Positions 2,226-32,235 of a DNA stretch of 55,390 nt are shown one piece after another. Position 1 is the stretch's first letter. The number at the start of each line of letters is the position of its first letter. Both the position numbers and the translations under genes were made by a program. The notes beneath the pieces were generated by a model that was not told the origin of the DNA, made no database searches, and saw nothing but the letters and a program-made list of their open reading frames with translations. The stretch is from a virus (lineage: Duplodnaviria > Caudoviricetes): IMG/VR virus record IMGVR_UViG_3300030329_001437, positions 1 through 55,390 of that record; one strand, given 5' to 3'.

Positions 2226-2567
2226 ATGGCTATTAAGAAAACATTAATAGAGGCTAAACCATACAATGATGGCGGCAAGGTTGTTCGTTGGGATCTTGTA
2301 ATGAAATACGAGCAAGGCACTGAAGGTAAAGATGATTACTATACTAATGACAAACAAATTACCATCGAAGCGTCAGAAAAAGATTCGGAAGGAAAAGATG
2401 TTAGTAATTTTACTTCAAAAGCTGAAGGTGAGTGGACTAAGAAAGAGCTTGAAGATCTTTGCCCAACCGCTAAGTGGGATGAAATATTTGCAAGTCAGTA
2501 TGACTCGGTAATTACGAATCCATCGACTGATCCTGTGCCTAACAACGAGTTTTCAATACCTAGCTAA
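2226..2567 (+). CDS. Hypothetical tail fibre-associated protein
   Basis: 113-aa ORF with AAGGAG RBS directly after the fibre gene; role inferred from position only. Confidence 0.6.
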   Translation: MAIKKTLIEAKPYNDGGKVVRWDLVMKYEQGTEGKDDYYTNDKQITIEASEKDSEGKDVSNFTSKAEGEWTKKELEDLCPTAKWDEIFASQYDSVITNPSTDPVPNNEFSIPS

Positions 2568-17769: not shown

Positions 17770-18195
17770 ATGATGCCTATTAACCCACCAGAGAATAGAT
17801 TAGATCAAATGAGAGCCGCTATGCCTCAGAACACGGCCCCTATGCCTATGGGAGGCAACCAAACTCCCTTGAATACTCCCCCCGTAGGCTCTATGCCTCC
17901 TCCCCCACCTGCAGGGGGAGGCGGTCCTCAAATGGTTTCAGCCGCGCCTATGGGAACTGACGCTATGCCAGCAGAGGACAACACCCGTTTAGATGATCTT
18001 TTAGGTTCTGTTGCAAGCGAAGAAATGATGACTCCTGAAGAGATAGCGATGGAAGGAGAAGCTGGTTTAGATATAGCAGGAGGCCTCGCAGAAGCCGCTT
18101 TGAATTTTTCTGGGTCTATTTCTGGTGCTAAAGCAGAATTAGAATCAGCGTTAGCTCAACTAGATGCAATGGAGATGGCAGAAGGACTAGCGTAA
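17770..18195 (+). CDS. Hypothetical Pro/Met-rich acidic protein
   Basis: Last ORF of the virion run; its 3' end overlaps the convergent helicase by 9 nt. Confidence 0.55.
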   Translation: MMPINPPENRLDQMRAAMPQNTAPMPMGGNQTPLNTPPVGSMPPPPPAGGGGPQMVSAAPMGTDAMPAEDNTRLDDLLGSVASEEMMTPEEIAMEGEAGLDIAGGLAEAALNFSGSISGAKAELESALAQLDAMEMAEGLA

Positions 18196-19932: not shown

Positions 19933-20268
19933 ATGACAGTTTATATAGTCCAAGAAGCCCCTGGAAAAAACTTAGTTCCAGCCCAAAAATACGGAGAGCT
20001 AGAATTGTTACTCCCAGCGAGAACAAACCTGATGCTTTCTACTGGTCCTGAAGTACAGAAATTGAAAAGGGCACTCTCGAATTTTAATGATGAAGACTAT
20101 TTATTATTAGTAGGAGACCCTGCGGCAATAGGATTGTGTTGCGCTATCGCGGCCTCGGTAAACGGTAGATTTTCAGTTTTGAAATGGGATAGGCAAGAGA
20201 TGACGTACTATCCCGTGTCCTTTGATATTAGAAGAAACACAACAGAACTAGGAGAAGTATATGTCTGA
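19933..20268 (+). CDS. Hypothetical protein
   Basis: 111-aa ORF with AAGGAG RBS; first gene of the replication block. Confidence 0.7.
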   Translation: MTVYIVQEAPGKNLVPAQKYGELELLLPARTNLMLSTGPEVQKLKRALSNFNDEDYLLLVGDPAAIGLCCAIAASVNGRFSVLKWDRQEMTYYPVSFDIRRNTTELGEVYV

Positions 20269-20842
20269 GGTAGAAAACACAGAACTAACTTTCGAAGAAC
20301 TAACAGGTAATGCAACAACAGAAGAGTGGAACGACACTACCACTGATAATGAATTTTCTAAAATCTCTGCAACAGCGCAGAGACTATTAGATCAAGACAA
20401 ATTAGTAGAAAGTTTAGAAGCTGATCTGAAGGCGGCTAAAGAATTAGCTAGAACTATACGGGAACAAGAGCTTCCTGAAGCAATGCAGTCTGCTAACTTG
20501 ATGGAAATTAAATTAACAGATGGCTCTAAGATATCTATAGACCAGTTTTATAAAGGTCATATTTCCGAGCTTCATAAAAAGAAAGCACATCAATGGTTAG
20601 TAGATAACGGTCACGGTGGAATTATCAAACATGAAATCACTGTCAAGTTCGGTAAAGACGAAGACGAAAAGGCTACAAACACATTAGAAAGATTAAAACA
20701 GCAGGGGTTATCTCCTGAAGTTAAGCAAGGAGTTCATGCGCAGACGCTAAATGCGTTTGTGAAGGAGCAGCTCACGGGCGGGAAGGATATTCCTGCTGAT
20801 TTATTCGGGATATACGTGGGATCCCGCGCCAAAATAAAGTAG
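20261..20842 (+). CDS. Hypothetical replication-module protein
   Basis: N-terminal coiled coil and VHAQTLNAFVKE motif; precedes the SSB-like gene. Confidence 0.65.
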   Translation: MSEVENTELTFEELTGNATTEEWNDTTTDNEFSKISATAQRLLDQDKLVESLEADLKAAKELARTIREQELPEAMQSANLMEIKLTDGSKISIDQFYKGHISELHKKKAHQWLVDNGHGGIIKHEITVKFGKDEDEKATNTLERLKQQGLSPEVKQGVHAQTLNAFVKEQLTGGKDIPADLFGIYVGSRAKIK

Positions 20843-20852
20843 AGGAAAAACT

Positions 20853-21644
20853 ATGGCTAGTAAGAAAGTAGCAGAGCAGCAAGCCTCTGACCTCATACCT
20901 TTCGATGACGATTTGTTATCTGCGGGTACAGGGCTAGAGGAAGCGGAGGCTGGAGATTATGCAATCCCGTTTCTACGGATTCTCCAATCAATGTCACCTC
21001 AATTAAAAAAGAGTGACGGTAAATATATCGCTGACGCAGAAGAAGGTAACTTCTTCAACACGGTTACTGAGGCGGTGTACGATGGGTCAGACGGAGTATT
21101 GATTATTCCATGCGCCTATAAAAAGAAGTATATAGAGTGGGTGACTCGGGAAAACGGTGGTGGTTTCGTAAGTGACCAGCATTCTGTACAGACATTAGTA
21201 ACTTGTAAAAAAGATGACAGTGGACGTTACATTATGCAAAATGGTAATCAACTTGCTGAAACGGCAGAGTATTACTGTATTTTTGCGCAAGATGAAAATG
21301 CCCCTGAGCAAGTTCTATTGAGCTTGACTTCTTCACAGCTAGGCTTTTCGAGACGTTGGAATACAATGTTGAACAATGCTCGAGTGGTAAATAAGGCAGG
21401 AGAAGCTGTACCAGCCCCTATGTTTGCACATACATATCGACTAACTACAATTCCGCAATCTAATGATCAATATAGTTGGATGGGACTTTCTGTTGAAAAA
21501 GAAGGGCCAACTTCGTTGCCATTAGCAACAGCGGCATTAGAGTTTATGAAGGCGGCTAGACAAGGCACTGTTCAAGTACAACAAGAACAAGAATCAGTGG
21601 TAACAAACACGGAGGAAGAGAACGAGGACGACGTTCCATTTTAG
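20853..21644 (+). CDS. Putative single-stranded DNA-binding protein
   Basis: Acidic tail ending EEENEDDVPF, like SSB C-termini; next to primase and helicase. Confidence 0.65.
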   Translation: MASKKVAEQQASDLIPFDDDLLSAGTGLEEAEAGDYAIPFLRILQSMSPQLKKSDGKYIADAEEGNFFNTVTEAVYDGSDGVLIIPCAYKKKYIEWVTRENGGGFVSDQHSVQTLVTCKKDDSGRYIMQNGNQLAETAEYYCIFAQDENAPEQVLLSLTSSQLGFSRRWNTMLNNARVVNKAGEAVPAPMFAHTYRLTTIPQSNDQYSWMGLSVEKEGPTSLPLATAALEFMKAARQGTVQVQQEQESVVTNTEEENEDDVPF

Positions 21645-21659: not shown

Positions 21660-23183
21660 ATGTCATTACAAGAAGAGTTTGCCCACCGTTTCGCGGGGTT
21701 GAGACACGGTCATAGTGTCTTTACCCCGACGAAAGAAAAACGGGAAGATGGCAAAGCGAAAGGAAAATATGTAACAATATCAAAAACTCTAAGCCAAAAA
21801 GAACTAGAAGACGTTTGGCTACAGCACCTGAAAGGTGAAAAAGGTCTCGGTATAGTACCGATTGACGAAGATAACAACTGCATTTGGGGATCTATTGATA
21901 TCGATGAGTTTTCAGTAGATCTGAAGGGGTTAGCTAAGAAGCTAAAGAAATTCAAATTACCTTTGGTCGTGTGTCGATCAAAAAGTGGAGGAGCACATTT
22001 ATTTCTATTTGTGTTCGACCCAGTTCCTGCCTCTACGATGCAACGAAAACTTAGACAAGTAGCGTCTGCTATTGGGTTTGGTCAGTCTGAGATTTTTCCT
22101 AAACAAACTAAGCTCTTATTAGAGCGAGGGGATAGGGGAAGTTCTCTGAATATGCCTTATTTTGGCGGGGAGAACTCTACTGGTTACGGCTTCGGCCCGA
22201 CTGGTAAAGTTCTCAGCCCAAAAGAATTCCTAGAGTATGTAGAGACACTTGTTCTAACTGAAGAAGAGTTAGAAAAACTAGAAGTGACTCCTATATTAGA
22301 GGACGCTGAGTGGTTAGATCAAGCTCCCCCTTGTTTAGAGCATCTTATAGCTCAGGGGTTTCCGAAAGGAATGCGAAACTCAGGACTCTTTAACGTAGGA
22401 GTTTTTCTACGAAAGAAGTTTCCAGATGACTGGGAGAGTCGAGTAGAGCAGGCTAACCACAAACACTTCTCTCCTCCTTTGAGTGCGCAAGAAGTATTGA
22501 CGGTTACGAAACAGGTTCAGAAGAAAGATTATTTCTATAAATGTAACGATCAGCCGATAGCAGGGCATTGTAACAGCCCTCTATGTAGAACTCGTAAATT
22601 CGGTATAGGAGCTTCGGGCGGCACTCCTCTGTTCAGTAATCTAACTAAACAGAATAGTGACCCTCCTATCTGGTTCTTAGATGTAGAAGGTGGACGACTA
22701 GAGTTAGAAACTGAAGAACTGCTGAACCAGAATAGGTTTCAGAGAAAGTGTATGGATAGCCTCAATATTATTCCTCAGAAGGTAAGGGATAATGTCTGGC
22801 GTCAGATTATACAACAGCTCCTGGATACTTTGACTATCATCGAAGTTCCTAAAGACGCATCAACTGAGGGGCATTTCAACGAATTATTAGAGACGTTTTG
22901 TACTGAACGTCCTGCTAGAGAACGTGACGAGTTACTATTAGGAAAGCCGTGGTCAGACAAGGATAGAACATATTTTAGACTAGGCGATCTGATGGACTAC
23001 TTACATCGCAAGAACTTCAGAGACTACCCTAGAAATAAACTTACAGCTAAGTTGAGAAATATGGGAGGAGATTCTTATTTCTTTAATATAAAAGGGAAAG
23101 GTGCGAATGTGTGGCATATACCACAGTTTGAAGCTCAAACAGAGTCACACAACTTACCTGATTTCGACGACAGCGTACTGTAG
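21660..23183 (+). CDS. Putative AEP-type primase (prim-pol)
   Basis: DxD (IDID), SKSGGAH motif, PPC...RN helical domain and Cys cluster (YKC...HC...LC). Confidence 0.75.
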   Translation: MSLQEEFAHRFAGLRHGHSVFTPTKEKREDGKAKGKYVTISKTLSQKELEDVWLQHLKGEKGLGIVPIDEDNNCIWGSIDIDEFSVDLKGLAKKLKKFKLPLVVCRSKSGGAHLFLFVFDPVPASTMQRKLRQVASAIGFGQSEIFPKQTKLLLERGDRGSSLNMPYFGGENSTGYGFGPTGKVLSPKEFLEYVETLVLTEEELEKLEVTPILEDAEWLDQAPPCLEHLIAQGFPKGMRNSGLFNVGVFLRKKFPDDWESRVEQANHKHFSPPLSAQEVLTVTKQVQKKDYFYKCNDQPIAGHCNSPLCRTRKFGIGASGGTPLFSNLTKQNSDPPIWFLDVEGGRLELETEELLNQNRFQRKCMDSLNIIPQKVRDNVWRQIIQQLLDTLTIIEVPKDASTEGHFNELLETFCTERPARERDELLLGKPWSDKDRTYFRLGDLMDYLHRKNFRDYPRNKLTAKLRNMGGDSYFFNIKGKGANVWHIPQFEAQTESHNLPDFDDSVL

Positions 23184-24677
23184 ATGCTAACACAACGGGC
23201 ACAAATAATACTTGGCCCTCCTGGAACTGGTAAAACAAGCACTTTGTTAGGGTTACTCGAAGAGGAACTCGATAAAGGAACAGACCCTGAAGACATAGGG
23301 TTCTTCACGTTTACGAAACAAGCAGTGCAGGAAGGAAAGAGCAGAGCGATGTCGAAGTTCTCTGTGACTAATAACCAACTGCGGTATTTTAGAACCCTCC
23401 ACTCGTTATGTTTTTATCAGCTGAGTCTATCTAAGGGTAGTGTTATGTCTTCTTCGGATATATACGACTTAAATGAAAAGCTGAACCTTAGATTAAAAGG
23501 TGCAGTAAGCACTGAAGAAGGACACATCTCTGGTATTTCTAAAGATGATCGATTATTGTTTATAGAAAATCTTTCGAGAATGCGACAGGTTAGTTTAGAA
23601 ACACAATGGCACGAGGCTGAGGATGCTGTAGGCTGGTTCGAACTAGAGAGATTCGCTAATGGCTTGAAACTGTTCAAACAAGATCGACTATTGATCGACT
23701 ACACTGATATGTTGCAACTGTTTCTTGATCGAGGAAAGGCTCCGAAACTAGACGTAATGTTCGTAGACGAAGCACAAGATCTTTCACCGTTACAGTGGGC
23801 AGTGGTTAGGAAGTTATGTGAATCAGCTGATCGTATTTATATTGCAGGTGACGATGATCAGGCTATTTATCGCTGGGCGGGTGCAGATGTCGATTATCTA
23901 ATCCGTAACTCTAAGAACGCCATGGTTCTCAAACAGTCCTATAGAATCCCTAAATCTATCCATAGCCTTGCCGAGCGTTGTATCGGACAAGTCGGTTCAC
24001 GTGTACACAAAGTGTGGAATCCTAGAAAAGAAGAAGGACAAGTTTCGTGGGAGCCGTCTTATGAAACTATAGACATGGAACAAGGAGAGTGGTTAGTGCT
24101 GGCACGAACTAACTATCTCTTAAACAGCATAGAAGAACATTGTAGGTCTGAAGGCTGGTTTTATAAAAGCAAGAACAGGCCAAGTGTCTCCGAAAGAAAG
24201 GTCATGGCGGTAAGGTCTTGGGAAAGTTTTAGGAAAGGAGGCGAAATGCCTTTCGTAGATTTCACCAAAGTGCTTAATTATTTAAAAGTTCGTCTACCTA
24301 ACTCCCTCGAGAAATTCGACTTTGATACTAATATCACATACGAAACGGCTCTAAGACACATTCCTAACCTTCCTAACGAATATTGGTACGATGTATTCAC
24401 GGCAATCTCAGTAGATGAGCGCAGTTACATACGAGCCATGCTCAGGAGAGGTGAAAAAATCACAAAAGAACCACGGATACGTTTATCAACCATCCACGCA
24501 GCCAAAGGAGGTGAAGCAGATAATGTGATTTTACTAACCGATATATCAAGTCGCGTGTACAAATCTTTCCAGGATAATCCTGATGATGAATCTCGTGTCT
24601 TTTATGTAGGACTTACTAGAGCGAAAGAAAATCTTTATTTAATTGAGCCGCAGACGCAAAAGTATTTTCCTCTTTAG
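23184..24677 (+). CDS. UvrD/Rep-like SF1 helicase
   Basis: GPPGTGKT, DEAQD, GDDDQAIY, STIHAAKGGE and YVGLTRA motifs. Confidence 0.93.
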   Translation: MLTQRAQIILGPPGTGKTSTLLGLLEEELDKGTDPEDIGFFTFTKQAVQEGKSRAMSKFSVTNNQLRYFRTLHSLCFYQLSLSKGSVMSSSDIYDLNEKLNLRLKGAVSTEEGHISGISKDDRLLFIENLSRMRQVSLETQWHEAEDAVGWFELERFANGLKLFKQDRLLIDYTDMLQLFLDRGKAPKLDVMFVDEAQDLSPLQWAVVRKLCESADRIYIAGDDDQAIYRWAGADVDYLIRNSKNAMVLKQSYRIPKSIHSLAERCIGQVGSRVHKVWNPRKEEGQVSWEPSYETIDMEQGEWLVLARTNYLLNSIEEHCRSEGWFYKSKNRPSVSERKVMAVRSWESFRKGGEMPFVDFTKVLNYLKVRLPNSLEKFDFDTNITYETALRHIPNLPNEYWYDVFTAISVDERSYIRAMLRRGEKITKEPRIRLSTIHAAKGGEADNVILLTDISSRVYKSFQDNPDDESRVFYVGLTRAKENLYLIEPQTQKYFPL

Positions 24678-24680
24678 TCC

Positions 24681-24709
24681 TTTACCTTCTAGGGGTCTTT
24701 AAGTAAACT
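24681..24709 (+). promoter_or_regulatory. Sigma70-like promoter heading the modification operon
   Basis: TTTACC-N17-TAAACT preceded by TTTAGTCC. Confidence 0.65.
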
Positions 24710-24732
24710 AATAAATAAGAAAGGAGAAATAA

Positions 24733-25257
24733 ATGAATATATTTGTTACTGACCCAGATCCAGTAATAAGTGCACAGACGTTGTGTGATAAACACGTTGT
24801 CAAGATGGTACTTGAATCAGCGCAGATGTTATCCACAGCTTGGCGAGAACCTAACGATTTAAGGTCGAGTGAATTCTCGTCAAAGTACGCAGACGAACAT
24901 GAATTATACAAAACCGCACATCCTAATCACCCCTGTAGTATTTGGGTTAGACAAGCTCGAGAAAACTACAAGTGGTTATACAGACACTTCGTTGCTTTGT
25001 GCGATGAGTACACACACCGCTACGGGAAAAGTCATGCCTCTGCTAGACTCAAGGGGCCGTTGATGTGGCGTCCTTTTAGATCTAGTGCCCTACTAGATGC
25101 GATAGAAGAACCTTACGGGTTCGTACTAGCAATGCCAGATGAATATAAGTCAGACGATGTATTTGACTCTTATCGAAATTATTTAATGAACGAAAAACAA
25201 CATTTTGCTAAATGGGAGAAAGACCCTAGCCGCAAACCAACATGGTGGAGAACATAA
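24733..25257 (+). CDS. Pyrimidine-dimer DNA glycosylase (DenV)-like family protein
   Basis: MNIF...DKHVVKMVLESAQMLST and YKTAHPNHPCSIW motifs. Confidence 0.7.
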   Translation: MNIFVTDPDPVISAQTLCDKHVVKMVLESAQMLSTAWREPNDLRSSEFSSKYADEHELYKTAHPNHPCSIWVRQARENYKWLYRHFVALCDEYTHRYGKSHASARLKGPLMWRPFRSSALLDAIEEPYGFVLAMPDEYKSDDVFDSYRNYLMNEKQHFAKWEKDPSRKPTWWRT

Positions 25258-26120
25258 TGGCTTCTATTAGAAAGAAACTCGAAGAAAACGTAAACAACAG
25301 CAAAAACACTCGCATGGATATTGCTAGTGGAAACATGCTAGGAAACTGGCGACCTGACGAGATCACCCACATGACTCGTTACGATAAGATCTCCTCGCTT
25401 TGTATTGAAGAAGCAAAGAAATTAGGCAGACCTATCAACACGCTAGAGGCAGGATGTGGAGAGATATGGGTTCTACGAAACCTGTACAAAGCCTACACCG
25501 TTAAGAAGTCTGACGTGATTTCTTCTTATTGCGGAGTCGATATAGACCCTGCGTGTCTCAACGAGAAGCAAGGGTACAGTAGCCCGACAGGACTAGTTGA
25601 AGACTCTACTTGGTTTAAAAACTTCAACGGCAGAATCGATATTCAAGATCTCACCGTTAATCCTGTGTTCGACTTACCCGATAACTCTATTGATTTCTTC
25701 TGGACTACAGAGGTTATCGAACACATGAACCGTGAGTTCATACAAGCATGGCTTGATGACGCTAATCGAGTATTACGACCAGGAGGATTAATTTATGTTT
25801 CTACTCCTAACCATGACGGGTCTAACGACAAGCTACCTGAAGACCACATATACGAGTGGGGGTTCGAAGAACTCAAGAAAGAATTAACTCGACATACTCG
25901 AGGATGGTTTTTACAGTCTGTAGTTGGCACGTTTGCTCAGATGCCTAAACTAAAAGCAGCTATGCATAAAGACGAAGAAGATACTGAGTGGCGGTTATGG
26001 CCTGATCAGTTTGAACTTTTACAAGAACGCTATGGTAAACAGTTTCTTAGAGTGGTTGCCGCGACGTTTTACCCAGAAGTTTCTAACAACTGCGCATGGA
26101 TATTAAGAAAGAGACCATGA
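25257..26120 (+). CDS. Class I SAM-dependent methyltransferase
   Basis: LEAGCGE (motif I), GVDID, EVIEH, LRPGG and STPN. No DPPY/NPPY or PCQ DNA-methylase motif. Confidence 0.88.
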   Translation: MASIRKKLEENVNNSKNTRMDIASGNMLGNWRPDEITHMTRYDKISSLCIEEAKKLGRPINTLEAGCGEIWVLRNLYKAYTVKKSDVISSYCGVDIDPACLNEKQGYSSPTGLVEDSTWFKNFNGRIDIQDLTVNPVFDLPDNSIDFFWTTEVIEHMNREFIQAWLDDANRVLRPGGLIYVSTPNHDGSNDKLPEDHIYEWGFEELKKELTRHTRGWFLQSVVGTFAQMPKLKAAMHKDEEDTEWRLWPDQFELLQERYGKQFLRVVAATFYPEVSNNCAWILRKRP

Positions 26121-27067
26121 GTAATACACCTTTTATCCCAGAAGAGATTGTTCTCTATCTTTATTGGATAGAGGAACGAGAGCGCATTAGGCAAAAGAAA
26201 GAAGAATTAGGAGAAGACCCTCCGTGGACTGAAGACGAGATTCTACAGAAGTTTAAATTTTGCCAAGTCTTTCGAGAAGACGATAGAACGACTCGCTGGT
26301 TTGCTGCTCATATACGCAGACCACTTTCTTCCGAACCAGAAGTATTGATGGCAACAATAATATTCAGATTCTTTAATCTAATTGAAACGGGTAGAACCCT
26401 ACTAGACCACAATCTCCATATCGAATGGGACAGAGAAAAAGCGATAGAAGAAGTCAGGAAACAACCGAAATGGGTGACTGGGGCTTACATCGTTAAAACG
26501 CCTAATCGAATGGACAAAGTCAACGGGGTAGCTGAGTGTGTCTCCCATATCTGGAGTGATCGTGAACGTATACTTTCTGCAATAGAGAAGATGACTACTC
26601 TCGAAGAGGCGTGGTCTTTTCTTATGCAATACCCTTATATCGGGCCTTTCGTTTCATATGAGATTATCACCGACCTACGACATACCTATCTGTTAGACGA
26701 AGCCACAGACATTTGTACTTGGGGTAATCCAGGACCAGGAGCTATGAGAGGGCTGAACAGACTAACAGGTAGACCACTAGACTTTACTCGTAAAACACAT
26801 GACTGGCACACAGAGATGCGAATCTTGTACGACATTTGTAAAGAAGAGTTAAAAGTTCCTGGAATGACTGTGGATAGTCCGTACTACCGAATGCCTTTTG
26901 AAATGAGAGAGGTAGAAGGAGGACTATGTGAATTCGATAAATACTCTCGAATCCACAATGGAGAAGGGCGTACACGGAGTATATATAACTACTCCAATAG
27001 AGAAACGCCATTAGTAGAAGATTTAGATAAAGGAGAAAGCAAATGGGTAAACTCAAACAACATGTGA
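26117..27067 (+). CDS. aGPT-Pplase clade 1-like DNA base hypermodification protein
   Basis: ERERI...PPWTED.IL..FKFCQVFREDDRTT, FRFFN, G.F.SYEI.TDL, GPGAMRGL and E..LCEFDKY motifs. Confidence 0.8.
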   Translation: MSNTPFIPEEIVLYLYWIEERERIRQKKEELGEDPPWTEDEILQKFKFCQVFREDDRTTRWFAAHIRRPLSSEPEVLMATIIFRFFNLIETGRTLLDHNLHIEWDREKAIEEVRKQPKWVTGAYIVKTPNRMDKVNGVAECVSHIWSDRERILSAIEKMTTLEEAWSFLMQYPYIGPFVSYEIITDLRHTYLLDEATDICTWGNPGPGAMRGLNRLTGRPLDFTRKTHDWHTEMRILYDICKEELKVPGMTVDSPYYRMPFEMREVEGGLCEFDKYSRIHNGEGRTRSIYNYSNRETPLVEDLDKGESKWVNSNNM

Positions 27068-27279
27068 TGGAAGGAGAGGAAACCTATACTGAAAAAGTGC
27101 TGTTTTATTACGGCAACTTTTTAGTCGGGTGTATGAAAGACAGGACGATCCCTAATACGTGGCAAGACGCTATCAACGCGATACATTGGTCTATGTATCT
27201 CGAGGGAAAAGAGATCAGTCGATTGCAGATCGAATATATTCTTAAAGAGAACACGGAGAGTTTATATGAAGACGATTAG
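27043..27279 (+). CDS. Hypothetical protein
   Basis: 78 aa with AAGGAG RBS; overlaps both neighbours. Confidence 0.6.
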   Translation: MGKLKQHVMEGEETYTEKVLFYYGNFLVGCMKDRTIPNTWQDAINAIHWSMYLEGKEISRLQIEYILKENTESLYEDD

Positions 27280-28333
27280 AGCTAGGAACGTGGATGAAGC
27301 TCTTTATTTAGGAGTGGACTTTTTTCGAGGCCCAGAAGGGGTCAACTACAGAAAGCAAGAAAGTAGAAATGGAATGACAAGAGAGTCTATTGGCCCTGTT
27401 GTTACACACTACACGAGACCTTGGGAACGTGTTTCATTTCAGAAAGAACGCGATGCAAATCCTTTCTTTCATTTGTACGAAGCTATCTGGATGTTAGCAG
27501 GATCTAAAGAGCTAAAGAAGCTGACTTATTTCAACGCAGGCATGGCTAACTTTTCAGACGATGGCGTAAGGTTAAACGGAGCCTACGGGTACAGGTGGAC
27601 TAAGACGTTTATGTGGAATCAGATCGACATAATTATAAAAATGTTGAAAGAAGACCCAGACTCTAGACGTTGTGTACTACAGATGTGGGATGCCGTGCAC
27701 GACTTAAACAGCTCGAGTATCGACATACCTTGTAACACAAACATCTATTTCAAAATCCGAGATGGAAAATTACAGATGACAGTCTGTAATCGGTCGAACG
27801 ATATGATCTGGGGAGCTTACGGAGCCAACGCAGTCCATATGTCAATACTGATGGAATACGTTGCCGTTGCAGTAAACGCCCCGATGGGTTCGTACTACCA
27901 GATCAGTGATAGTTTTCATATCTATGAAAATGAACAATGGGACAAGATAAAAGATTTATCAGGTAGAGGATTCGGCTCTTGGTTCTCTTCCACCTACCCT
28001 TCACCTCACTATCCCTTGGTCTCAGATCCAGCCACATTTACCGATGAGTGCATGAAGTTTATACAAACCACTCCTCCTACTCGACGGTCTGGAAACCCAG
28101 AAGAAGTGGATGCGTTCTCACCGTCGTTTACTACGGAAACCTATAACAACACGTTCTTTCCTGACGTGATGATACCGATGGTTTCAGCATTTAGAAGCCA
28201 CAAAGAAAGAAACTACAAGGAGGCTTATGACTTTCTTAAAGAAATTAAAGCACTGGATTGGCAAGAAGCCGCATTCCATTGGATTAAACGAAGACAACTT
28301 AATTGGGAGAAAAAACATGGGACTGGATCCTAA
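27266..28333 (+). CDS. Thymidylate synthase-fold enzyme, probable dUMP hydroxymethylase
   Basis: SRR, catalytic PC (DIPCNT), RSND, Asn at the base-specificity position (GAN) and HIY; divergent from canonical ThyA; C-terminal extension. Confidence 0.8.
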   Translation: MKTIRARNVDEALYLGVDFFRGPEGVNYRKQESRNGMTRESIGPVVTHYTRPWERVSFQKERDANPFFHLYEAIWMLAGSKELKKLTYFNAGMANFSDDGVRLNGAYGYRWTKTFMWNQIDIIIKMLKEDPDSRRCVLQMWDAVHDLNSSSIDIPCNTNIYFKIRDGKLQMTVCNRSNDMIWGAYGANAVHMSILMEYVAVAVNAPMGSYYQISDSFHIYENEQWDKIKDLSGRGFGSWFSSTYPSPHYPLVSDPATFTDECMKFIQTTPPTRRSGNPEEVDAFSPSFTTETYNNTFFPDVMIPMVSAFRSHKERNYKEAYDFLKEIKALDWQEAAFHWIKRRQLNWEKKHGTGS

Positions 28334-28661
28334 GTGGCAGGATGTTAAGTCTATTGCGCAGGAAGATATACACAGCCTGATTGAGTCTGAGAAGTCCTAC
28401 GGAGACTCTTGGAGAAGACGCGGCGGCACTGGGGCGTTTATGATGTTGGCTCGTAAATTCGACCGTATCGAACAACAGAGTAAAGACTGTAACTACGATA
28501 TTTTCGAAGCGGGGGATAAGTATAACGGCGAGGACGGTTTACTAGACGATATAGGGGATCTTAGACGATACCTCTTACTAGTAGAGCATCACATCAGATA
28601 CGGCTCTAACGAGCTTATAGAGGAGAGGAATGTCGAGACAGATACCGTTGATTCAGCCTGA
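28317..28661 (+). CDS. Nmad1/DUF1599-like all-helical protein, possible nucleotide pyrophosphatase
   Basis: KSYGDSW..RG..G...RKFDR...DDIGDL..Y pattern; lies between the TS-like gene and the polymerase. Confidence 0.6.
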   Translation: MGLDPKWQDVKSIAQEDIHSLIESEKSYGDSWRRRGGTGAFMMLARKFDRIEQQSKDCNYDIFEAGDKYNGEDGLLDDIGDLRRYLLLVEHHIRYGSNELIEERNVETDTVDSA

Positions 28662-30498
28662 AAGTGATTGGGCAGCTCCTGAGACGCTACCTTCGTTTAC
28701 ACCTACTGAGACGATTGCAATAGACCTTGAGACATACGACCCTGATTTATCGAAGACAGGACCAGGATGGGCCACAGGAAAAGGGCATACTGTAGGGATT
28801 GCGATAGCTACTAAAACGTGGTCAGGTTATCTGCCCATACGACACGAGGGCGGTGGTAATTTAGAAGAGGAACTTGTCTTACGTTGGCTCAAAAACACAC
28901 TCGAAAACCATAAAGGCACACTCGTTTTCCACAATGCACTTTACGATGTAGGCTGGCTCAAGCGAGAAGGGATCGACATAAAGTGTTCTATCAGAGACAC
29001 GATGTTCGCGGCCCCTTTGTTAGACGAAAATAGAAGATCATATTCGCTAAACAATTTAGGCAAGGATTTATTAGCGGAAGAAAAAGACGAAACGCTACTC
29101 GAGATGGCAGCAAAAGCGTGGGGAGTAAACGCGAAGAGTGGTATGTGGGCATTGCCTGCTAAATATGTTGGGCCATACGCTGAACAAGACGCAGTTCTAA
29201 CATTTAAACTGTGGGAGATATTTAAAAAGAAGATCGAAGCCGAAGGACTACAGAAGATTTTTGATCTTGAGTGTGATCTTATTCCTCTGCTAATCGAGAT
29301 GCGTTGGAGAGGAGTGAGGATCGATCTAGACCGAGCACATCAGGTATCAGAAGAACTCTCTAAAAAAGAGCAGCAGCTTCTGGTTGAGTTTAAGAGAAAG
29401 TTTGGCTCCACTGTTGAGATCTGGTCTAACGCTTCGATACAAAAAGCCTTTGATAACAATGACATATGGTATCCTCACACACAAAAAGGGATGCCTAGTT
29501 TCCAAGCTAACTGGCTCGAGAATCACGATCATGAACTACCGAAGATGCTGGTCGCTGCTCGAAAACTAAACAAAGCTCGGACTACGTTTATCGACGGAAT
29601 GATTTTAGAACACTGTTCAGACGGTAGGATTCATGCTGAAGCTCATCCACTGCGTAACGATGGAGGAGGAACGGTCACAGGTAGATTTAGTTACTCGAAT
29701 CCAAACTTACAGCAAGTTCCTGCTAGAGATCCTGAGATCGGTAAGATGATTCGATCCCTGTTCATTCCAGAGGAAGGCGCACATTGGGGGGTGTTCGATT
29801 ACTCTCAGCAAGAACCTAGAATCACAGTACATTACGCATCACTGCTCGGACTTACAGGGGCAAACGAAGCAGTAGAAGCCTACTCTAGCCAAGATGCAGA
29901 CTTTCATCAGATCGTAGCAGACATGGCTGACATTCCTCGGAAACAAGCTAAAAATATCAACCTCGGACTAACCTATGGCATGGGAAGAGAGAAATTAATT
30001 AAAGAGTTGGGGTTAGAACAAGACGAAGCGGAGGATTTGTTAGAAGTATACCACGCAAGAGTTCCTTTCATTAGAGGGATACAGGACAGATGCACTCGGA
30101 TAGCGCAAGAACGAGGGTATATAACGACTCTCGGAGGCAGGAAATGTCATTTCGACCTTTGGGAACCAGTCGGTTATCTATCTGACGAAAAACGAACACC
30201 TTTACCTAAAGAAGAAGCTATTGATCAATACGGAGACAATCTCAAACGATCGTTTACTTACAAAGCACTTAATAGATTGATCCAGGGATCAGCAGCAGAC
30301 ATGACGAAACTTGCAATGCGTGACTTGTGGAGAGAAGGACTTGTTCCACACCTACAGGTTCATGATGAACTCGACTACTCGATCGAGACAGAAGAGCAAG
30401 CTCAGCTCATTATCGACAAGATGGTGAACTGTGTTGAACTAAAAGTTCCACTAGTAGTGGATTACGAAAAAGGACAAACATGGGGCGAAGCAGAATGA
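28630..30498 (+). CDS. polA: DNA polymerase family A with 3'-5' exonuclease
   Basis: DLET, HNALYD and YAEQD exonuclease motifs; TGRFS, DYSQQEPR, KNINLGLTYG and VHDE polymerase motifs. Confidence 0.96.
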   Translation: MSRQIPLIQPESDWAAPETLPSFTPTETIAIDLETYDPDLSKTGPGWATGKGHTVGIAIATKTWSGYLPIRHEGGGNLEEELVLRWLKNTLENHKGTLVFHNALYDVGWLKREGIDIKCSIRDTMFAAPLLDENRRSYSLNNLGKDLLAEEKDETLLEMAAKAWGVNAKSGMWALPAKYVGPYAEQDAVLTFKLWEIFKKKIEAEGLQKIFDLECDLIPLLIEMRWRGVRIDLDRAHQVSEELSKKEQQLLVEFKRKFGSTVEIWSNASIQKAFDNNDIWYPHTQKGMPSFQANWLENHDHELPKMLVAARKLNKARTTFIDGMILEHCSDGRIHAEAHPLRNDGGGTVTGRFSYSNPNLQQVPARDPEIGKMIRSLFIPEEGAHWGVFDYSQQEPRITVHYASLLGLTGANEAVEAYSSQDADFHQIVADMADIPRKQAKNINLGLTYGMGREKLIKELGLEQDEAEDLLEVYHARVPFIRGIQDRCTRIAQERGYITTLGGRKCHFDLWEPVGYLSDEKRTPLPKEEAIDQYGDNLKRSFTYKALNRLIQGSAADMTKLAMRDLWREGLVPHLQVHDELDYSIETEEQAQLIIDKMVNCVELKVPLVVDYEKGQTWGEAE

Positions 30499-30701
30499 AG
30501 ATACAGAGTCTTACTCAGGAAAAAATATCTAAATTTGAAAAAAGGAATCTAGAAATTTTTCGATTATACTCAGAAGAGGGAATGACTCTGGAAGAGATCG
30601 GGAAGGATTATGGCCTGACTAAACAACGAGTGTGGCAGATTGTACAGCGTTGTTCAGAAGGTCAGGGGGACTATTATGCACAGCATCGACAGGAGAACTA
30701 A
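30495..30701 (+). CDS. Sigma70 region 4-like HTH protein
   Basis: GMTLEEIGKDYGLTKQRVWQI. Confidence 0.75.
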   Translation: MKIQSLTQEKISKFEKRNLEIFRLYSEEGMTLEEIGKDYGLTKQRVWQIVQRCSEGQGDYYAQHRQEN

Positions 30702-31090
30702 TGCCACAAGAAGCATCGCTCTGGAAGTTACTGAAAGCTAATCTTCCTAAAGAAGCCCATGTTCAAAGGATCGAGACTGGGGGGACTGCTCGAGGAGTAC
30801 CTGATGTCAACATTTGTCATGCAGGCAAAGAAGTCTGGATCGAACTGAAATCAATCAAAGGAAATAAACTAACTCTGACTGAGTTTCAGATTGTCTGGAT
30901 GCATAACAGAAGCATAAGCGGAGGCAACTGTTTTATCTTAGCAAAGAAAGATAAAGAGCTACGAGCATTTGATATTTCCGACTATGAACTAGAAGAGTTT
31001 TTAGAGGGAAAAGTGAATTGGAACAGTGATTTACGTGTGAGTCTTACTCCTCCTTACGAGTGGGAAAAACTCTTTAAATTCATTTTTTAA
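30701..31090 (+). CDS. PD-(D/E)xK nuclease (VRR-NUC or Holliday junction resolvase-like)
   Basis: GVPD...WIELK...Q..W motifs; ATG 30701 after AGGAG. Confidence 0.8.
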   Translation: MPQEASLWKLLKANLPKEAHVQRIETGGTARGVPDVNICHAGKEVWIELKSIKGNKLTLTEFQIVWMHNRSISGGNCFILAKKDKELRAFDISDYELEEFLEGKVNWNSDLRVSLTPPYEWEKLFKFIF

Positions 31091-31093
31091 TGC

Positions 31094-31151
31094 TTTACTT
31101 TCTTTTAATCGCGGTTTACGCTAATAAAAGGTAGCGCGGCATACGGCTACC
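31094..31151 (+). promoter_or_regulatory. Early promoter plus leader hairpin
   Basis: TTTACT-N17-TACGCT followed by a GGTAGC...GCTACC stem. Confidence 0.7.
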
Positions 31152-31185
31152 AAAGAAAGTAGAACTGAAACAAAGGAGGCCTATT

Positions 31186-32235
31186 ATGGCAGCAGCAGTA
31201 GAAACCATGGCGTACTCAGGTGAAGTACCGTGGCACCGCGAAGGTGTTGCAGTACAACCTGACCTAACGCCATATGAAATGATGGAAGCCGCAGGGCTTG
31301 ACTGGACTGTTACTAAACGTAACACTTGGACTTCGGCGATCCCTATGGATCAATACAAACCTGACGAAGACGGCAACATCGCGTTGCAACTTTTACCTAA
31401 CCCAGACCGCTTTGACATAGTACGCGATTCCGATAACGCCATACTTGGTAACAGCGGTAGCGACTACCAACCCATACAAAACGAGCGTATTTTTGACTTC
31501 TTCCAGAAGTTTTCTAAACACGCCGACATCACTATGGAAACGGCAGGTAGCTTAAAGAACGGCCAGAGCATATGGGGTCTTGCGCGTATTAATGACGCGT
31601 ACGAGCTTACTGGCGGCGACGAAATGAACAGCTTTGTACTGTTTCATCAACCGCACCAACCAGGATATTCTATGAATATTCGTGGCACGGAAGTTCGTGT
31701 TGTGTGCAACAACACATTGCAGATGGCAATGCGTAGCCAAGCACAAAACGAGTTTCGTATGTCACACCGTTCTGTATTTGACGAAGTACGAGAGGCCGAA
31801 GCTCTTAAAACTATGGGCGTTATACAAGAGATGCGTACCGAGTTTAAAGATGCTGTGAAGTTTCTTTCTACCAAGAAAGCTACGGAAGGTCAGGTACTTG
31901 AGTTTGTCACTAGGGTACAGCAGCCTACATTGTACAAAGAGTACGCTGAGCAACAACGGCTCAGAGAAGAAGGCAAGAAGATTGGCGAGCCTATCCTCTT
32001 ACGCGAACAGTTTAGTAAATACGCTGAACTAACGCGACGTTCACTTGAAGAATCTCCTGGAGCGCAACTGAAATCTGCCAAGGGTACTTGGTGGGGAGCA
32101 GTTAACGCGGTTACATTTATTGAAGATCACCAACGCGGTGGTGACAATAGAGTGTTTAACGCGATGTTTGGAGAAAATTCTACTCGTAAAACTAGAGCGT
32201 TGAACTTAGCTCTCGAATACGCGAGGGCAGCGTAG
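31186..32235 (+). CDS. DUF932-family protein
   Basis: PWH..G, AGLDW.V, Y.PIQN, ETAGSL..G..IW.LA, VRVVCNNTL and GTWWGAVNAVT motifs. Confidence 0.85.
   Translation: MAAAVETMAYSGEVPWHREGVAVQPDLTPYEMMEAAGLDWTVTKRNTWTSAIPMDQYKPDEDGNIALQLLPNPDRFDIVRDSDNAILGNSGSDYQPIQNERIFDFFQKFSKHADITMETAGSLKNGQSIWGLARINDAYELTGGDEMNSFVLFHQPHQPGYSMNIRGTEVRVVCNNTLQMAMRSQAQNEFRMSHRSVFDEVREAEALKTMGVIQEMRTEFKDAVKFLSTKKATEGQVLEFVTRVQQPTLYKEYAEQQRLREEGKKIGEPILLREQFSKYAELTRRSLEESPGAQLKSAKGTWWGAVNAVTFIEDHQRGGDNRVFNAMFGENSTRKTRALNLALEYARAA

What the first reader, a model, noticed from the sequence alone, without database searches (positions are those of the whole stretch)
24681..30498. Probable thymidine hypermodification operon with a methyltransferase and no visible hmdU kinase
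Seen: one promoter followed by a chain of overlapping genes: DenV-like, SAM methyltransferase, aGPT-Pplase1-like, 78-aa ORF, TS-fold enzyme with Asn at the specificity position, Nmad1-like, PolA. Established: in phages such as ViI, M6 and PhiW-14, a dUMP hydroxymethylase supplies hmdU, a P-loop kinase activates it in DNA, and aGPT-Pplase-type proteins are part of the cluster that adds a substituent. Here the tailoring enzyme is a small-molecule-type methyltransferase without DNA-methylase motifs. I see no P-loop kinase, PLP decarboxylase or radical SAM gene in the window. Inference: the DNA carries hmdU plus a possibly undescribed methylated derivative made by a kinase-independent route, or the kinase lies outside the window. 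The Nmad1-like protein may remove dTTP or dUTP.
Basis: partly seen in the sequence, partly recalled or inferred. Interest (0 to 1): 0.82.

Follow-up and report, generated by a model that had tools for sequence, protein, structure and literature searches.

The report
Kinase-less hydroxymethyluracil cassette with partner methyltransferase
An uncultured marine phage carries a conserved gene set that probably replaces thymine with hydroxymethyluracil and then methylates it, using a methyltransferase family that also accompanies hydroxymethyl-pyrimidine enzymes in unrelated phages, so the final DNA base may be undescribed.

Summary
The gene chain is real: DenV-like, class I SAM methyltransferase (MT), stand-alone clade-1 aGPT-Pplase (Pfam HMUDK_hel), 78-aa ORF, Asn-type TS-fold enzyme of the M6/PhiJL001 hydroxymethylase clade, a Pam3-gp54-like protein, and PolA. 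Two details failed: the consensus scan found no promoter, and Pfam does not support the 'Nmad1' label.

The window is the whole virus record (93% complete). It has no 5-hmdU DNA kinase, clade-2 transferase, PLP or radical-SAM gene. Five relatives that are 99-100% complete also lack the kinase, so 'kinase outside the window' is unlikely.

The MT-Pplase1-TS-PolA order holds in all 72 related IMG/VR loci.

New here: the MT family recurs outside this clade. In 5 of 6 usable contexts it sits beside a TS-fold enzyme (Asp-type, i.e. cytosine-type); in the sixth it sits near a ThyX gene. One context is cultured phage AXL3, whose DNA resists 35 of 37 restriction enzymes.

Best reading: the MT acts on the shared 5-hydroxymethyl group, probably by O-methylation, giving 5-methoxymethyl-dU here. 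This is inferred, not shown. The role of Pplase1 without a kinase is open.

This scan has reported the same cassette on other genomes.

The parts
24678..24732 (+). 55-nt gap between helicase and DenV-like gene, with an AAGGAG ribosome-binding site; the claimed promoter
   Evidence: Sequence read. The sigma-70 consensus scan reports no site here.
24733..25257 (+). DenV-like protein (T4 endonuclease V family); an optional member of the cassette
   Evidence: Pfam Pyr_excise 2.4e-12, 47.5 bits against cut-off 23. phrog_624 3.3e-62. Present in 35 of 72 related loci, and in 32 of the 64 loci where both helicase and MT are covered.
25242..26120 (+). Class I SAM methyltransferase of a phage family that accompanies hydroxymethyl-pyrimidine synthases
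   Evidence: Pfam Methyltransf_23 1.8e-11, _11 7.3e-09, _25 1.4e-06. AlphaFold model pLDDT 76.2. Fold ties at Z 15.3-17.5 with many class I methyltransferases. Homologues in L087, L088, AXL3, MW202510 and MW202621 score 9e-34 to 7e-94 against the family HMM.
26096..27067 (+). Stand-alone clade-1 aGPT-Pplase (Pfam HMUDK_hel) with the Glu-x3-Cys active-site motif retained
   Evidence: PF18723 1.8e-43. 34-44% identity to M6 gp55 and PhiJL001 gp19. E274 and C278 are invariant in 18 clade members, and the motif is shared with clade 2. Model pLDDT 84.2; HhH-glycosylase/PUGT fold at Z 9.4-10.8.
27043..27279 (+). 78-aa ORF of unknown function
   Evidence: No Pfam or PHROG family. Detectable in 24 of 72 related loci. 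More distant relatives carry a different 73-78-aa ORF at this position.
27266..28333 (+). TS-fold enzyme, uracil-type (Asn); probable dUMP hydroxymethylase
   Evidence: PF00303 2.6e-21. phrog_5131 5.2e-106. 41% identity to M6 gp58 and 39% to PhiJL001 gp24. All NCBIfam thymidylate synthase equivalogs fall below cut-off; the best is 88.2 bits against 174.55. The best solved relative is CMP hydroxymethylase MilA at 4.2e-24, against 5.9e-14 for the best TS.
28227..28661 (+).
   Evidence: A profile of 15 clade members hits Pam3 gp54 at 8.3e-35. No Pfam or PHROG hit. Alignment.
28630..30498 (+). Family A DNA polymerase with 3'-5' exonuclease
   Evidence: DNA_pol_A 8.3e-62 and DNA_pol_A_exo1 7.5e-14.
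21660..24677 (+). Upstream replication genes (AEP primase 21660-23183, UvrD-type helicase 23184-24677) that flank the cassette in relatives
   Evidence: Primase found in 64 and helicase in 70 of 72 related loci.

Best explanation
This is the nucleotide-modification and replication operon of an uncultured marine siphophage. Its terminase is 50-57% identical to those of HTVC023P-type pelagiphages.

Step 1 (inferred from homology): the Asn-type TS-fold enzyme makes 5-hydroxymethyl-dUMP from dUMP. PolA then puts 5-hmdU into DNA in place of some or all thymidine.

Step 2 (inferred from comparative genomics): the class I SAM methyltransferase is a dedicated partner of hydroxymethyl-pyrimidine synthases. 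It most likely O-methylates the 5-hydroxymethyl group to give 5-methoxymethyl-dU. This could happen on the nucleotide or on DNA. Capping the hydroxyl would play the role that glucosylation plays in T4.

Step 3 (open): the stand-alone clade-1 aGPT-Pplase keeps the Cys nucleophile and the Glu of the solved clade-2 transferase. It is therefore probably a base-flipping DNA enzyme that attacks C6 of the modified uracil without prior phosphorylation. It might convert a subset of sites to thymine or to another adduct.

No 5-hmdU DNA kinase, clade-2 amino acid:DNA transferase, PLP or radical-SAM enzyme takes part.

My odds:
- hmdU-based modification happens at all: about 0.75.
- The MT takes part in it: about 0.6.
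- The product is specifically the O-methyl ether: about 0.3.
The confidence given (0.5) is for the cassette as described with the MT as a participant, not for the exact product.
For: Anatomy and families.

The TS-fold enzyme:
- It groups with M6 gp58 (41% identity) and PhiJL001 gp24 (39%).
- It fails every NCBIfam thymidylate synthase cut-off.
- It carries Asn at the specificity position.

The kinase route is absent:
- PF18748 finds M6 (1.1e-19), Pam3 (1.4e-7) and Ab18 (3.9e-4), but nothing in this record.
- It finds nothing in 5 relatives that are 99-100% complete.
- There is no strict Walker A motif other than the helicase.
- PF18724 is absent.

The cassette is conserved:
- 72 of 72 IMG/VR loci with the MT (54-97% identity) have Pplase1 next to it.
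- 66 of 72 have MT+Pplase1+TS+gp54-like+PolA. The other 6 loci are 9.2-10.8 kb, and none of the missing downstream genes is detected in them; I read this as truncation but did not verify contig ends.
- The MT stop and Pplase1 start overlap or abut in 65 of 68 ORF pairs.

The MT is linked to hydroxymethyl-pyrimidine synthesis outside this clade:
- L087, a complete 49-kb phage: AADT - 5-HMUDK - MT - x - TS.
- L088: MT - dNMP-kinase-like - TS.
- AXL3 (and its close relative PW916): MT - NTP-PPase - kinase-like - TS - dCMP deaminase.
- MW202510: MT - NTP-PPase - thymidylate kinase - 'pyrimidine hmase' - dCMP deaminase - PolA.
- MW202621: MT - NTP-PPase - ... - 'pyrimidine hmase' - dCMP deaminase.

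These five TS-fold partners carry Asp (cytosine-type), while the window clade carries Asn. What the contexts share is the 5-hydroxymethyl group, not the base.

AXL3 DNA was cut by only 2 of 37 restriction enzymes (PMC7504290, passages read).

The MT family has an invariant His/Glu pair, H202 and E205, as expected for a general base acting on a hydroxyl. That expectation is my inference.

Pplase1 keeps E274-x3-C278. This matches Glu243/Cys247 of PaMx11 gp46 (PMC11472151, passages read; PMC8989533, section 17).
Against: No chemistry is shown for any protein here.

The 72 loci form one collinear clade, so conservation inside it is weak evidence of functional coupling.

The MT fold is generic. Z 15.3-17.5 ties METTL6, ChlM, CmoM, RebM, HEN1 and cap methyltransferases, so the substrate atom is not indicated.

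Only 6 contexts outside the clade could be read. One of them, L086 (a divergent member), has no TS-fold gene in its 69-kb contig; it has a ThyX gene instead. L089 was uninformative because the MT is cut at the contig end.

AXL3's restriction resistance fits any complete C modification and does not show a methyl ether.

The genome lacks a recognisable dTTPase/HD hydrolase, dCMP deaminase or dNMP kinase, all of which hmU phages normally use to exclude dTTP. Replacement of T may therefore be partial or absent.

Many small ORFs remain unannotated, so a kinase of another fold is not excluded.

The genome search did not re-find PF18724 in the L087 genome, although hmmscan scored that ORF at 29.0 bits against a cut-off of 26.2.
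Confidence: 0.5

Rival explanations
1. The DNA carries 5-hmdU only, or 5-hmdU partly converted back to thymine by Pplase1. The methyltransferase has a job outside base modification, for example methylating another small molecule, an RNA or a protein, or acting against a host defence.
For: The fold search cannot tell a nucleic-acid MT from a small-molecule MT. The MT is acidic (pI 5.4). Phages of this kind convert part of their hmdU to thymine by an unidentified enzyme (PMC8989533, introduction), and clade-1 Pplase is untested.
Against: The MT family sits next to TS-fold or ThyX genes in 6 of 6 readable contexts outside the clade, across different replication modules and hosts. That is hard to explain for an unrelated function.
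Confidence: 0.18
2. Pplase1 itself transfers a nucleophile (an amino acid, amine or other group) onto 5-hmdU without a kinase. The methyltransferase then methylates that appended group, giving a methylated hypermodified thymidine rather than a methyl ether.
For: Pplase1 keeps the Glu/Cys catalytic motif of the solved transferase. The MT stop overlaps the Pplase1 start in 65 of 68 pairs. In L087 the MT lies directly after an AADT-kinase pair.
Against: AXL3, MW202510 and MW202621 carry the MT with no PF18723, PF18724 or PF18748 gene anywhere in their genomes. The MT therefore does not need a transferase product as substrate.
Confidence: 0.12
3. The canonical route operates: an unrecognised kinase of another fold among the hypothetical proteins, or a host kinase, phosphorylates 5-hmdU in DNA, and Pplase1 uses 5-PmdU as in M6.
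For: Many ORFs have no family. The record is 93% rather than 100% complete.
Against: There is no PF18748 hit, no M6 gp54 homologue and no spare Walker A motif in the record. Five relatives that are 99-100% complete also have no PF18748. PhiJL001, a cultured phage with Pplase1, lacks it too.
Confidence: 0.08
4. The TS-fold enzyme is an ordinary thymidylate synthase, the DNA is canonical, and the neighbouring genes are unrelated passengers.
For: It carries the catalytic Cys and the uracil-type Asn of the TS family. The genome has no recognisable dTTP-exclusion genes.
Against: It scores below all seven NCBIfam TS equivalog cut-offs. It is closer to the solved CMP hydroxymethylase than to any TS. 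It belongs to phrog_5131 along with the M6-type enzymes and sits beside a Pplase1 gene, as in hmdU phages.
Confidence: 0.07

Closest known systems
Thymidine hypermodification clusters of Pseudomonas phages M6 and PaMx11, and of Pam3, ViI and PhiW-14 (Lee et al. 2018 PMC5889632; 2021/22 PMC8989533)
   Same: The gene order Pplase1 - TS-fold hydroxymethylase - small helical protein - PolA is the same. Pplase1 is 33-44% and TS 39-41% identical to the M6 and PhiJL001 proteins.
   Different: It has no 5-HMUDK, clade-2 AADT, PLP, rSAM, FAD or acetyltransferase gene, and no Nmad5 or HD hydrolase. A methyltransferase sits exactly where M6, Pam3 and Ab18 have the kinase, directly upstream of Pplase1. 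The published metavirome survey was seeded with kinase queries, so kinase-less clusters were outside its design.
Alphaproteobacteria phage PhiJL001 (Keylargovirus)
   Same: It carries the closest cultured Pplase1 (43.8% identity). It also has no PF18748 kinase in the whole genome. Its order is Pplase1 ... TS - HD - PolA.
   Different: In place of a methyltransferase, PhiJL001 has a TET-associated glycosyltransferase (PF20691, 2.7e-53) and Nmad5. This suggests a sugar cap rather than a methyl cap.
Stenotrophomonas phage AXL3 / Pseudoxanthomonas phage PW916 nucleotide operon (PMC7504290, PMC9414467)
   Same: Same MT family (family HMM 2.2e-36, with shared N- and C-terminal signature motifs), adjacent to a TS-fold enzyme. 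AXL3 DNA is strongly restriction-resistant.
   Different: The TS partner has Asp, i.e. cytosine-type. The MT sits with an NTP-PPase, a kinase-like protein and dCMP deaminase. No Pplase of any clade is present. MT identity to the window protein is only 28%.
PaMx11 gp46 (PUGT), the solved 5-PmdU glycinyltransferase (PDB 8z2m/8z2n; PMC11472151)
   Same: It is the top Foldseek match of the Pplase1 model (E 8e-3; VIA Z 9.4-9.6). The Glu-x3-Cys motif is shared.
   Different: It belongs to a different clade: profile-profile comparison gave probability 4.6%. The Z values tie with Ogg-type glycosylases and the queuine salvage enzyme. Here no phosphorylated substrate can be made by any known enzyme.
T4 hydroxymethylcytosine pathway with glucosyltransferases (recalled textbook knowledge, not from a call)
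   Same: The logic is the same: a TS-fold hydroxymethylase makes a 5-hydroxymethyl pyrimidine, and a second enzyme caps the hydroxyl.
   Different: Here the cap would be a methyl group from SAM rather than glucose, on uracil in this phage.

Membership tests
M6/ViI/PaMx11-type thymidine hypermodification pathway | TS-fold dUMP hydroxymethylase (uracil-type Asn, M6 gp58 clade) | tested here: met
   PF00303 2.6e-21; phrog_5131 5.2e-106; 41% identity to M6 gp58; Asn at the specificity position. Enzyme product not tested.
M6/ViI/PaMx11-type thymidine hypermodification pathway | P-loop 5-hmdU DNA kinase (PF18748) | tested here: not met
   No hit at E<=1 in the record, while M6, Pam3 and Ab18 gave hits in the same call. 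No M6 gp54 homologue. No spare Walker A motif. 0 of 5 complete relatives carry it.
M6/ViI/PaMx11-type thymidine hypermodification pathway | Clade-2 aGPT-Pplase / amino acid:DNA transferase (PF18724) | tested here: not met
   No PF18724 hit and no M6 gp51 homologue. Caveat: the same genome search also missed the 29-bit AADT of L087 that hmmscan found.
M6/ViI/PaMx11-type thymidine hypermodification pathway | Known tailoring enzymes (PLP decarboxylase, rSAM isomerase, FAD lyase, acetyltransferase) | tested here: not met
   tblastn with M6 gp52 and gp53 was negative. None appears among 40 Pfam-scanned window ORFs.
aGPT-Pplase clade 1 (Pfam PF18723 HMUDK_hel) | Profile match over the curated cut-off along the whole domain | tested here: met
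   149.3 bits against cut-off 25; profile positions 6-276 of 281.
aGPT-Pplase clade 1 (Pfam PF18723 HMUDK_hel) | Conserved Cys nucleophile with nearby Glu (Glu-x3-Cys) | tested here: met
   E274 and C278 are invariant in 18 clade sequences and present in M6, PhiJL001, Ab18 and Pam3. The motif matches Glu243/Cys247 of PaMx11 gp46.
aGPT-Pplase clade 1 (Pfam PF18723 HMUDK_hel) | Helix-hairpin-helix DNA-glycosylase-like fold | tested here: met
   Model pLDDT 84.2. The top 41 VIA rows are HhH glycosylases, PUGT or the queuine salvage enzyme at Z 4.9-10.8. These Z values lie in the range the tool warns can be common for helical proteins.
aGPT-Pplase clade 1 (Pfam PF18723 HMUDK_hel) | Biochemical activity on 5-substituted uracil in DNA | not testable with these tools
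   No clade-1 activity is reported in the passages read from PMC8989533 and PMC5889632.
Class I SAM-dependent methyltransferase | Rossmann-fold profile match and SAM-binding motifs (GxG motif I, acidic residue after strand 2) | tested here: met
   Three Pfam MT families over cut-off. G71, G73 and D100 are conserved across the family. Fold Z 15.3-17.5.
DNA methyltransferases (N6A/N4C or C5) | (D/N/S)PP(Y/F/W) motif, or PC plus ENV motifs | tested here: not met
   By reading the sequence: it has no PP dipeptide and no PC/ENV pair. No DNA-MT Pfam family was hit.
Canonical thymidylate synthase (ThyA) | Score over the NCBIfam equivalog cut-offs | tested here: not met
   Seven TS models were hit, all below cut-off. 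The best was 88.2 bits against 174.55.
Nmad1 / DUF1599 (PF07659) | Profile match | tested here: not met
   No hit at E<=1 for the protein or any of 15 relatives, and none at E<=10 in the genome search. An Atlas cluster carries DUF1599 on 11% of members; this is a lead only.
T4 endonuclease V / Pyr_excise (PF03013) | Profile match over cut-off | tested here: met
   47.5 bits against cut-off 23; profile positions 1-75 of 81. Activity not testable.

The most novel reading that the evidence does not exclude
The methyltransferase family is a 5-hydroxymethyl-pyrimidine O-methyltransferase. It would make 5-methoxymethyl-dU in this abundant marine phage clade and 5-methoxymethyl-dC in AXL3-type phages. 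These two natural DNA bases were not found in my literature searches. The stand-alone clade-1 Pplase would then act on this ether, or on hmdU, without phosphorylation, using water or methanol as the leaving group.
Probability: 0.3. Interest if true: 0.85.

Novelty: new variant of a known kind. Interest (0 to 1): 0.72.

Why it matters
All characterised routes from 5-hmdU to a hypermodified thymidine pass through a P-loop DNA kinase and a clade-2 transferase. This cassette lacks both. It is conserved in at least 72 viral contigs, and its protein family is widespread in marine metagenomes, Tara samples among them.

If the methyltransferase caps the hydroxymethyl group, three things follow:
- There would be a new natural DNA base and a new minimal strategy against restriction enzymes and glycosylases.
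- An enzyme that methylates 5hmU or 5hmC would interest people who map these bases.
- It would give the first clue to what clade-1 aGPT-Pplases do. They are present in M6, Pam3, Ab18/PaMx11-type phages, PhiJL001 and PhiW-14, and in ViI and SP10 per PMC5889632. They have no assigned activity.

The question can be tested directly, because AXL3 and PW916 are cultured and carry the same MT family.

Tried and rejected
- Complex prediction on Pplase1 plus MT: verdict 'no answer' (score 0.00, mark 0.32). This is no evidence either way.
- Sequence search of the MT profile against solved structures gave only one generic MT, 2p8j at 1.5e-6.
- Foldseek and VIA-align on the MT model gave ties among many class I methyltransferases. 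They did not reveal a substrate.
- The search for homologous proteins on the MT listed only the window's own clade, all at >=64% identity.
- Scans for contexts of distant MT homologues found nothing usable with P0128, P0148, P0124 and P0122.
- P0135 gave only the divergent L086.
- P0150 in metagenome contigs gave one locus with the MT cut at the contig end.
- The alignment queries A5 and A6 were too diverse to search with.
- HTVC023P, HTVC027P, 023Pt_psg01 and DSL-LC04 are the closest cultured or named relatives by terminase. They gave no match to the MT profile or to PF18723. The tool warns that such empty answers show little. Neither group appeared in the tblastn searches either.
- Tet_JBP (PF12851) is absent from the window and from L086.
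- Literature: 'aGPT-Pplase1' appears in 2 papers, both genome descriptions. Searches for methoxymethyl-pyrimidine terms returned 12 papers, none about phage or DNA bases. The search combining '5-methoxymethyl' with 'bacteriophage' listed no paper holding the chemical term.
- Supplementary files of the papers were not opened. Figure 2 and the supplements of PMC8989533 might show MT-containing clusters that I could not see.

Full report
WHAT IS THERE

The window is a complete IMG/VR virus record of 55,390 bp, estimated 93% complete. Between an AEP primase (21660-23183) and UvrD-type helicase (23184-24677) on one side and a family A polymerase (28630-30498) on the other lie six co-directional ORFs whose ends overlap.
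- 24733-25257: DenV-like. Pfam Pyr_excise 2.4e-12; phrog_624.
- 25242-26120: class I SAM methyltransferase (MT). Methyltransf_23, _11 and _25, all over cut-off.
- 26096-27067: PF18723 HMUDK_hel, 1.8e-43. This is the current Pfam name for the helical domain that GenBank records of relatives annotate as aGPT-Pplase1.
- 27043-27279: 78-aa ORF, no family.
- 27266-28333: TS-fold enzyme. PF00303 2.6e-21; phrog_5131 5.2e-106.
- 28227-28661: 144-aa ORF.

- The sigma-70 scan finds no promoter in the 55-nt gap before the first gene. By eye there is an 8-of-12 match and an AAGGAG ribosome-binding site.
- The 144-aa protein is not a Pfam Nmad1/DUF1599 member. Neither it nor any of 15 relatives is hit at E<=1. 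A profile of its relatives matches Pam3 gp54 at 8.3e-35. That gene is annotated 'nucleotide modification' and sits at the same place in Pam3. Relatives start at the equivalent of 28317.

THE TS-FOLD ENZYME

It is 41% identical to M6 gp58 and 39% to PhiJL001 gp24 over its full length, including a C-terminal extension that ordinary thymidylate synthases lack. It scores below the cut-off of all seven NCBIfam thymidylate synthase models; the best is 88.2 bits against 174.55. Its best solved relative is the CMP hydroxymethylase MilA at 4.2e-24, ahead of the best thymidylate synthase at 5.9e-14. In those alignments its 'GAN' Asn aligns with the uracil-specifying Asn of TS and with the Asp of MilA. 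It is therefore a uracil-type enzyme. I read it as a dUMP hydroxymethylase by homology. The product itself was not tested.

THE KNOWN ROUTE IS ABSENT

In M6, PaMx11 and ViI, 5-hmdU in DNA is phosphorylated by a P-loop kinase. A clade-2 aGPT-Pplase (AADT) then adds an amino acid, which further enzymes trim (PMC8989533, introduction and sections 15, 17, 20, 21).

In this window:
- tblastn with M6 gp51, gp52, gp53, gp54, gp56 and gp59 finds nothing better than E 0.06.
- The only strict Walker A motif in six frames belongs to the helicase.
- PF18748 (the kinase) hits M6, Pam3 and Ab18 but not this record.
- PF18724 (AADT) is not found.
- Pfam scans of 40 ORFs show no kinase, PLP or radical-SAM enzyme.

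Five relatives with genomes 99-100% complete also lack PF18748. A kinase of an unrecognised fold remains possible, because many small ORFs have no family.

CONSERVATION

A scan of IMG/VR with the MT returned 72 loci at 54-97% identity.
- All 72 have Pplase1 beside the MT.
- 66 have the whole run MT-Pplase1-TS-gp54-like-PolA. The other 6 loci are 9.2-10.8 kb, and none of the missing downstream genes is detected in them; I read this as truncation but did not verify contig ends.
- None has an M6-type kinase, AADT, PLP, rSAM, Nmad5 or HD gene within about 8 kb.
- The DenV-like gene is present in 35 of 72, so it is optional.
- The 78-aa ORF is detectable in 24.
- The MT stop overlaps or abuts the Pplase1 start in 65 of 68 ORF pairs. 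The exceptions are L037 and L038 (145-nt gap) and L050 (four small ORFs inserted).

All 72 loci are one collinear lineage, so this alone says little about function. By terminase the lineage is nearest to 023Pt_psg01, DSL-LC04 and Pelagibacter phages HTVC027P and HTVC023P, at 50-58% identity. Those four genomes gave no match to the MT or to Pplase1 (the tool warns that empty answers are weak).

THE INFORMATIVE RESULT: THE MT FAMILY OUTSIDE THIS LINEAGE

A profile search of 1.84 billion representatives found 2306 relatives at E<=1e-3 and 32 at E<=1e-30. Full-length members down to 26% identity share N- and C-terminal signatures and the invariant residues R24, G71, G73, Y96, D151, E157, E160, H161, P189, N190, H202 and E205. 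N190 is replaced in the AXL3 group.

I could read six contexts outside the clade.

1. L087, a complete 49-kb phage with a different replication module: AADT (PF18724, 29.0 bits against cut-off 26.2) - 5-HMUDK (PF18748, 4e-23) - MT (38% identity) - a 234-aa ORF - TS-fold gene. A Pplase1 gene lies about 10 kb away.
2. L088, a 6-kb fragment: MT - P-loop thymidylate-kinase-like protein - TS-fold gene.
3. Cultured Stenotrophomonas phage AXL3, with its close relative PW916: MT - NTP pyrophosphohydrolase - kinase-like protein - TS-fold gene - dCMP deaminase.
4. MW202510: MT - NTP-PPase - thymidylate kinase - 'pyrimidine hmase' - dCMP deaminase - PolA.
5. MW202621: MT - NTP-PPase - gap - 'pyrimidine hmase' - dCMP deaminase.
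6. L086, a divergent member: ThyX - HAD/glyoxalase - SDR - radical SAM - MT-like - DnaE with an intein and a UDG domain. Its contig has no TS-fold gene.

A seventh locus, L089, was cut at the contig end and tells nothing. AXL3, MW202510 and MW202621 have no Pplase of either clade and no 5-HMUDK.

In the alignment of the TS-fold partners, the window clade and M6, PhiJL001, Pam3 and Ab18 carry Asn. The partners in L087, L088, AXL3, MW202510 and MW202621 carry Asp, the cytosine-type residue. The MT family therefore goes with hydroxymethylase-type enzymes of both base specificities, with or without DNA-level transferases. What these contexts share is a 5-hydroxymethyl pyrimidine.

The AXL3 paper reports that its DNA was cut by only 2 of 37 restriction enzymes, the two whose sites contain only A and T (PMC7504290, passages read). 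This fits a complete cytosine modification but does not identify it.

MECHANISM

Inferred: the MT acts on the 5-hydroxymethyl group, most simply by O-methylation. This would give 5-methoxymethyl-dU here and the cytosine analogue in AXL3-type phages.

In favour:
- The comparative pattern above.
- An invariant His/Glu pair of the kind a hydroxyl-directed methyltransferase would use. This reading is mine.
- The position of the MT exactly where M6, Pam3 and Ab18 have the kinase that derivatises the same hydroxyl.
- PhiJL001 has Pplase1 and TS, lacks the kinase, and instead carries a TET-associated glycosyltransferase. That would be another way of capping a hydroxyl.

On whether the MT acts on the nucleotide or on DNA: the acidic pI of 5.4 and the nucleotide-enzyme neighbours in AXL3-type operons lean weakly towards the nucleotide.

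Against or missing:
- The fold is generic. Z 15.3-17.5 ties METTL6, ChlM, CmoM, RebM, HEN1, Coq5 and cap methyltransferases.
- No chemistry is shown.
- The window lacks recognisable dTTP-exclusion genes.

PPLASE1

The protein keeps a Glu-x3-Cys motif. E274 and C278 are invariant in 18 clade members. The same motif is found in M6, PhiJL001, Ab18 and Pam3 clade-1 proteins and, by eye, in clade-2 proteins. In the solved PaMx11 gp46, Cys247 attacks C6 and Glu243 binds the metal at O4 (PMC11472151, passages read). Mutating the Cys or the Glu abolishes activity in M6 gp51 and ViI gp247 (PMC8989533, section 17).

The AlphaFold model (pLDDT 84.2) has PaMx11 gp46 as its top Foldseek match (E 8e-3). VIA-align gives Z 9.4-10.8 for gp46, Ogg-type glycosylases and the queuine salvage enzyme. 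Pplase1 is therefore probably an active base-flipping enzyme.

What it does without a kinase is open. One possibility is conversion of some modified sites to thymine, a step whose enzyme is unknown in hmdU phages. Another is transfer of a nucleophile. A complex prediction for MT plus Pplase1 gave no verdict (listed under Tried and rejected only).

COMPARISON AND NOVELTY

The cassette shares the Pplase1-TS-PolA core with M6-type clusters but fails three of that pathway's defining features: kinase, clade-2 transferase and known tailoring enzymes. I file it as a new variant of the hydroxymethyl-pyrimidine DNA modification systems, not as a member of the M6-type pathway.

The library searches found no natural methoxymethyl-pyrimidine in phage DNA. 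A 2026 paper notes O-methyltransferase domains among the neighbours of phage thymine dioxygenases, without assigning them a function (PMC13229309, passages read). The published metavirome survey of thymidine hypermodification was seeded with kinase queries, so it could not have found kinase-less cassettes.

EARLIER NOTES OF THIS SCAN

I looked these up after my own analysis. The same cassette has been reported on several other genomes, and the follow-ups reached the same 'kinase-less hmdU cassette with methyltransferase' reading.

Noticed in passing
L087:5480-9154 (complete 49-kb IMG/VR phage): An AADT - 5-hmdU DNA kinase - MT cluster is paired with a TS-fold enzyme that carries Asp (cytosine-type) rather than Asn. 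A Pplase1 gene lies about 10 kb away. Either this is a kinase-based hypermodification of hydroxymethylcytosine, or the Asn/Asp rule does not hold here.
   Followed up: partly
L003 (PhiJL001):6932-11349: PhiJL001 has Pplase1, a TET-associated glycosyltransferase (PF20691, 2.7e-53), Nmad5, a TS-fold enzyme and an HD hydrolase, but no PF18748 kinase in the whole genome. This suggests glycosylated hmdU made without a kinase.
   Followed up: partly
L086:2590-12577: A divergent MT-family member sits after ThyX, a HAD/glyoxalase protein, an SDR and a radical SAM/SPASM enzyme. It is followed by a DnaE split by an intein and carrying a UDG domain. This may be another pyrimidine-modification cluster.
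   Followed up: partly
window 2567-3271: A 234-aa putative 2OG-Fe(II) oxygenase (PF13759, 1.1e-13) lies among the structural genes. It is not a Tet_JBP family member.
   Followed up: partly
window 19933-21644: Three consecutive proteins match the Pfam families named after Pam3 gp32, gp33 and gp34 (2.5e-28, 2.7e-28, 7.1e-67). This links the early region to the cyanophage Pam3.
   Followed up: no
window 21660-23183 and 18187-19629(-): The primase matches the AEP domain of the TOTE conflict system (PF22548, 3.6e-13). An SNF2-family helicase is encoded on the opposite strand just upstream. SNF2 genes also follow the MT clusters of L087 and L088.
   Followed up: no
L050:2574-3490: In one relative, four small ORFs (63-95 aa) are inserted between the MT and Pplase1, breaking the otherwise near-universal overlap of the two genes.
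   Followed up: no
window 30632-32235: After PolA come a 152-aa protein matching phrog_2165 and phrog_5702 (helicase / Holliday junction resolvase labels) and a DUF932 protein (1.6e-37). Both are conserved in the 72 relatives.
   Followed up: no
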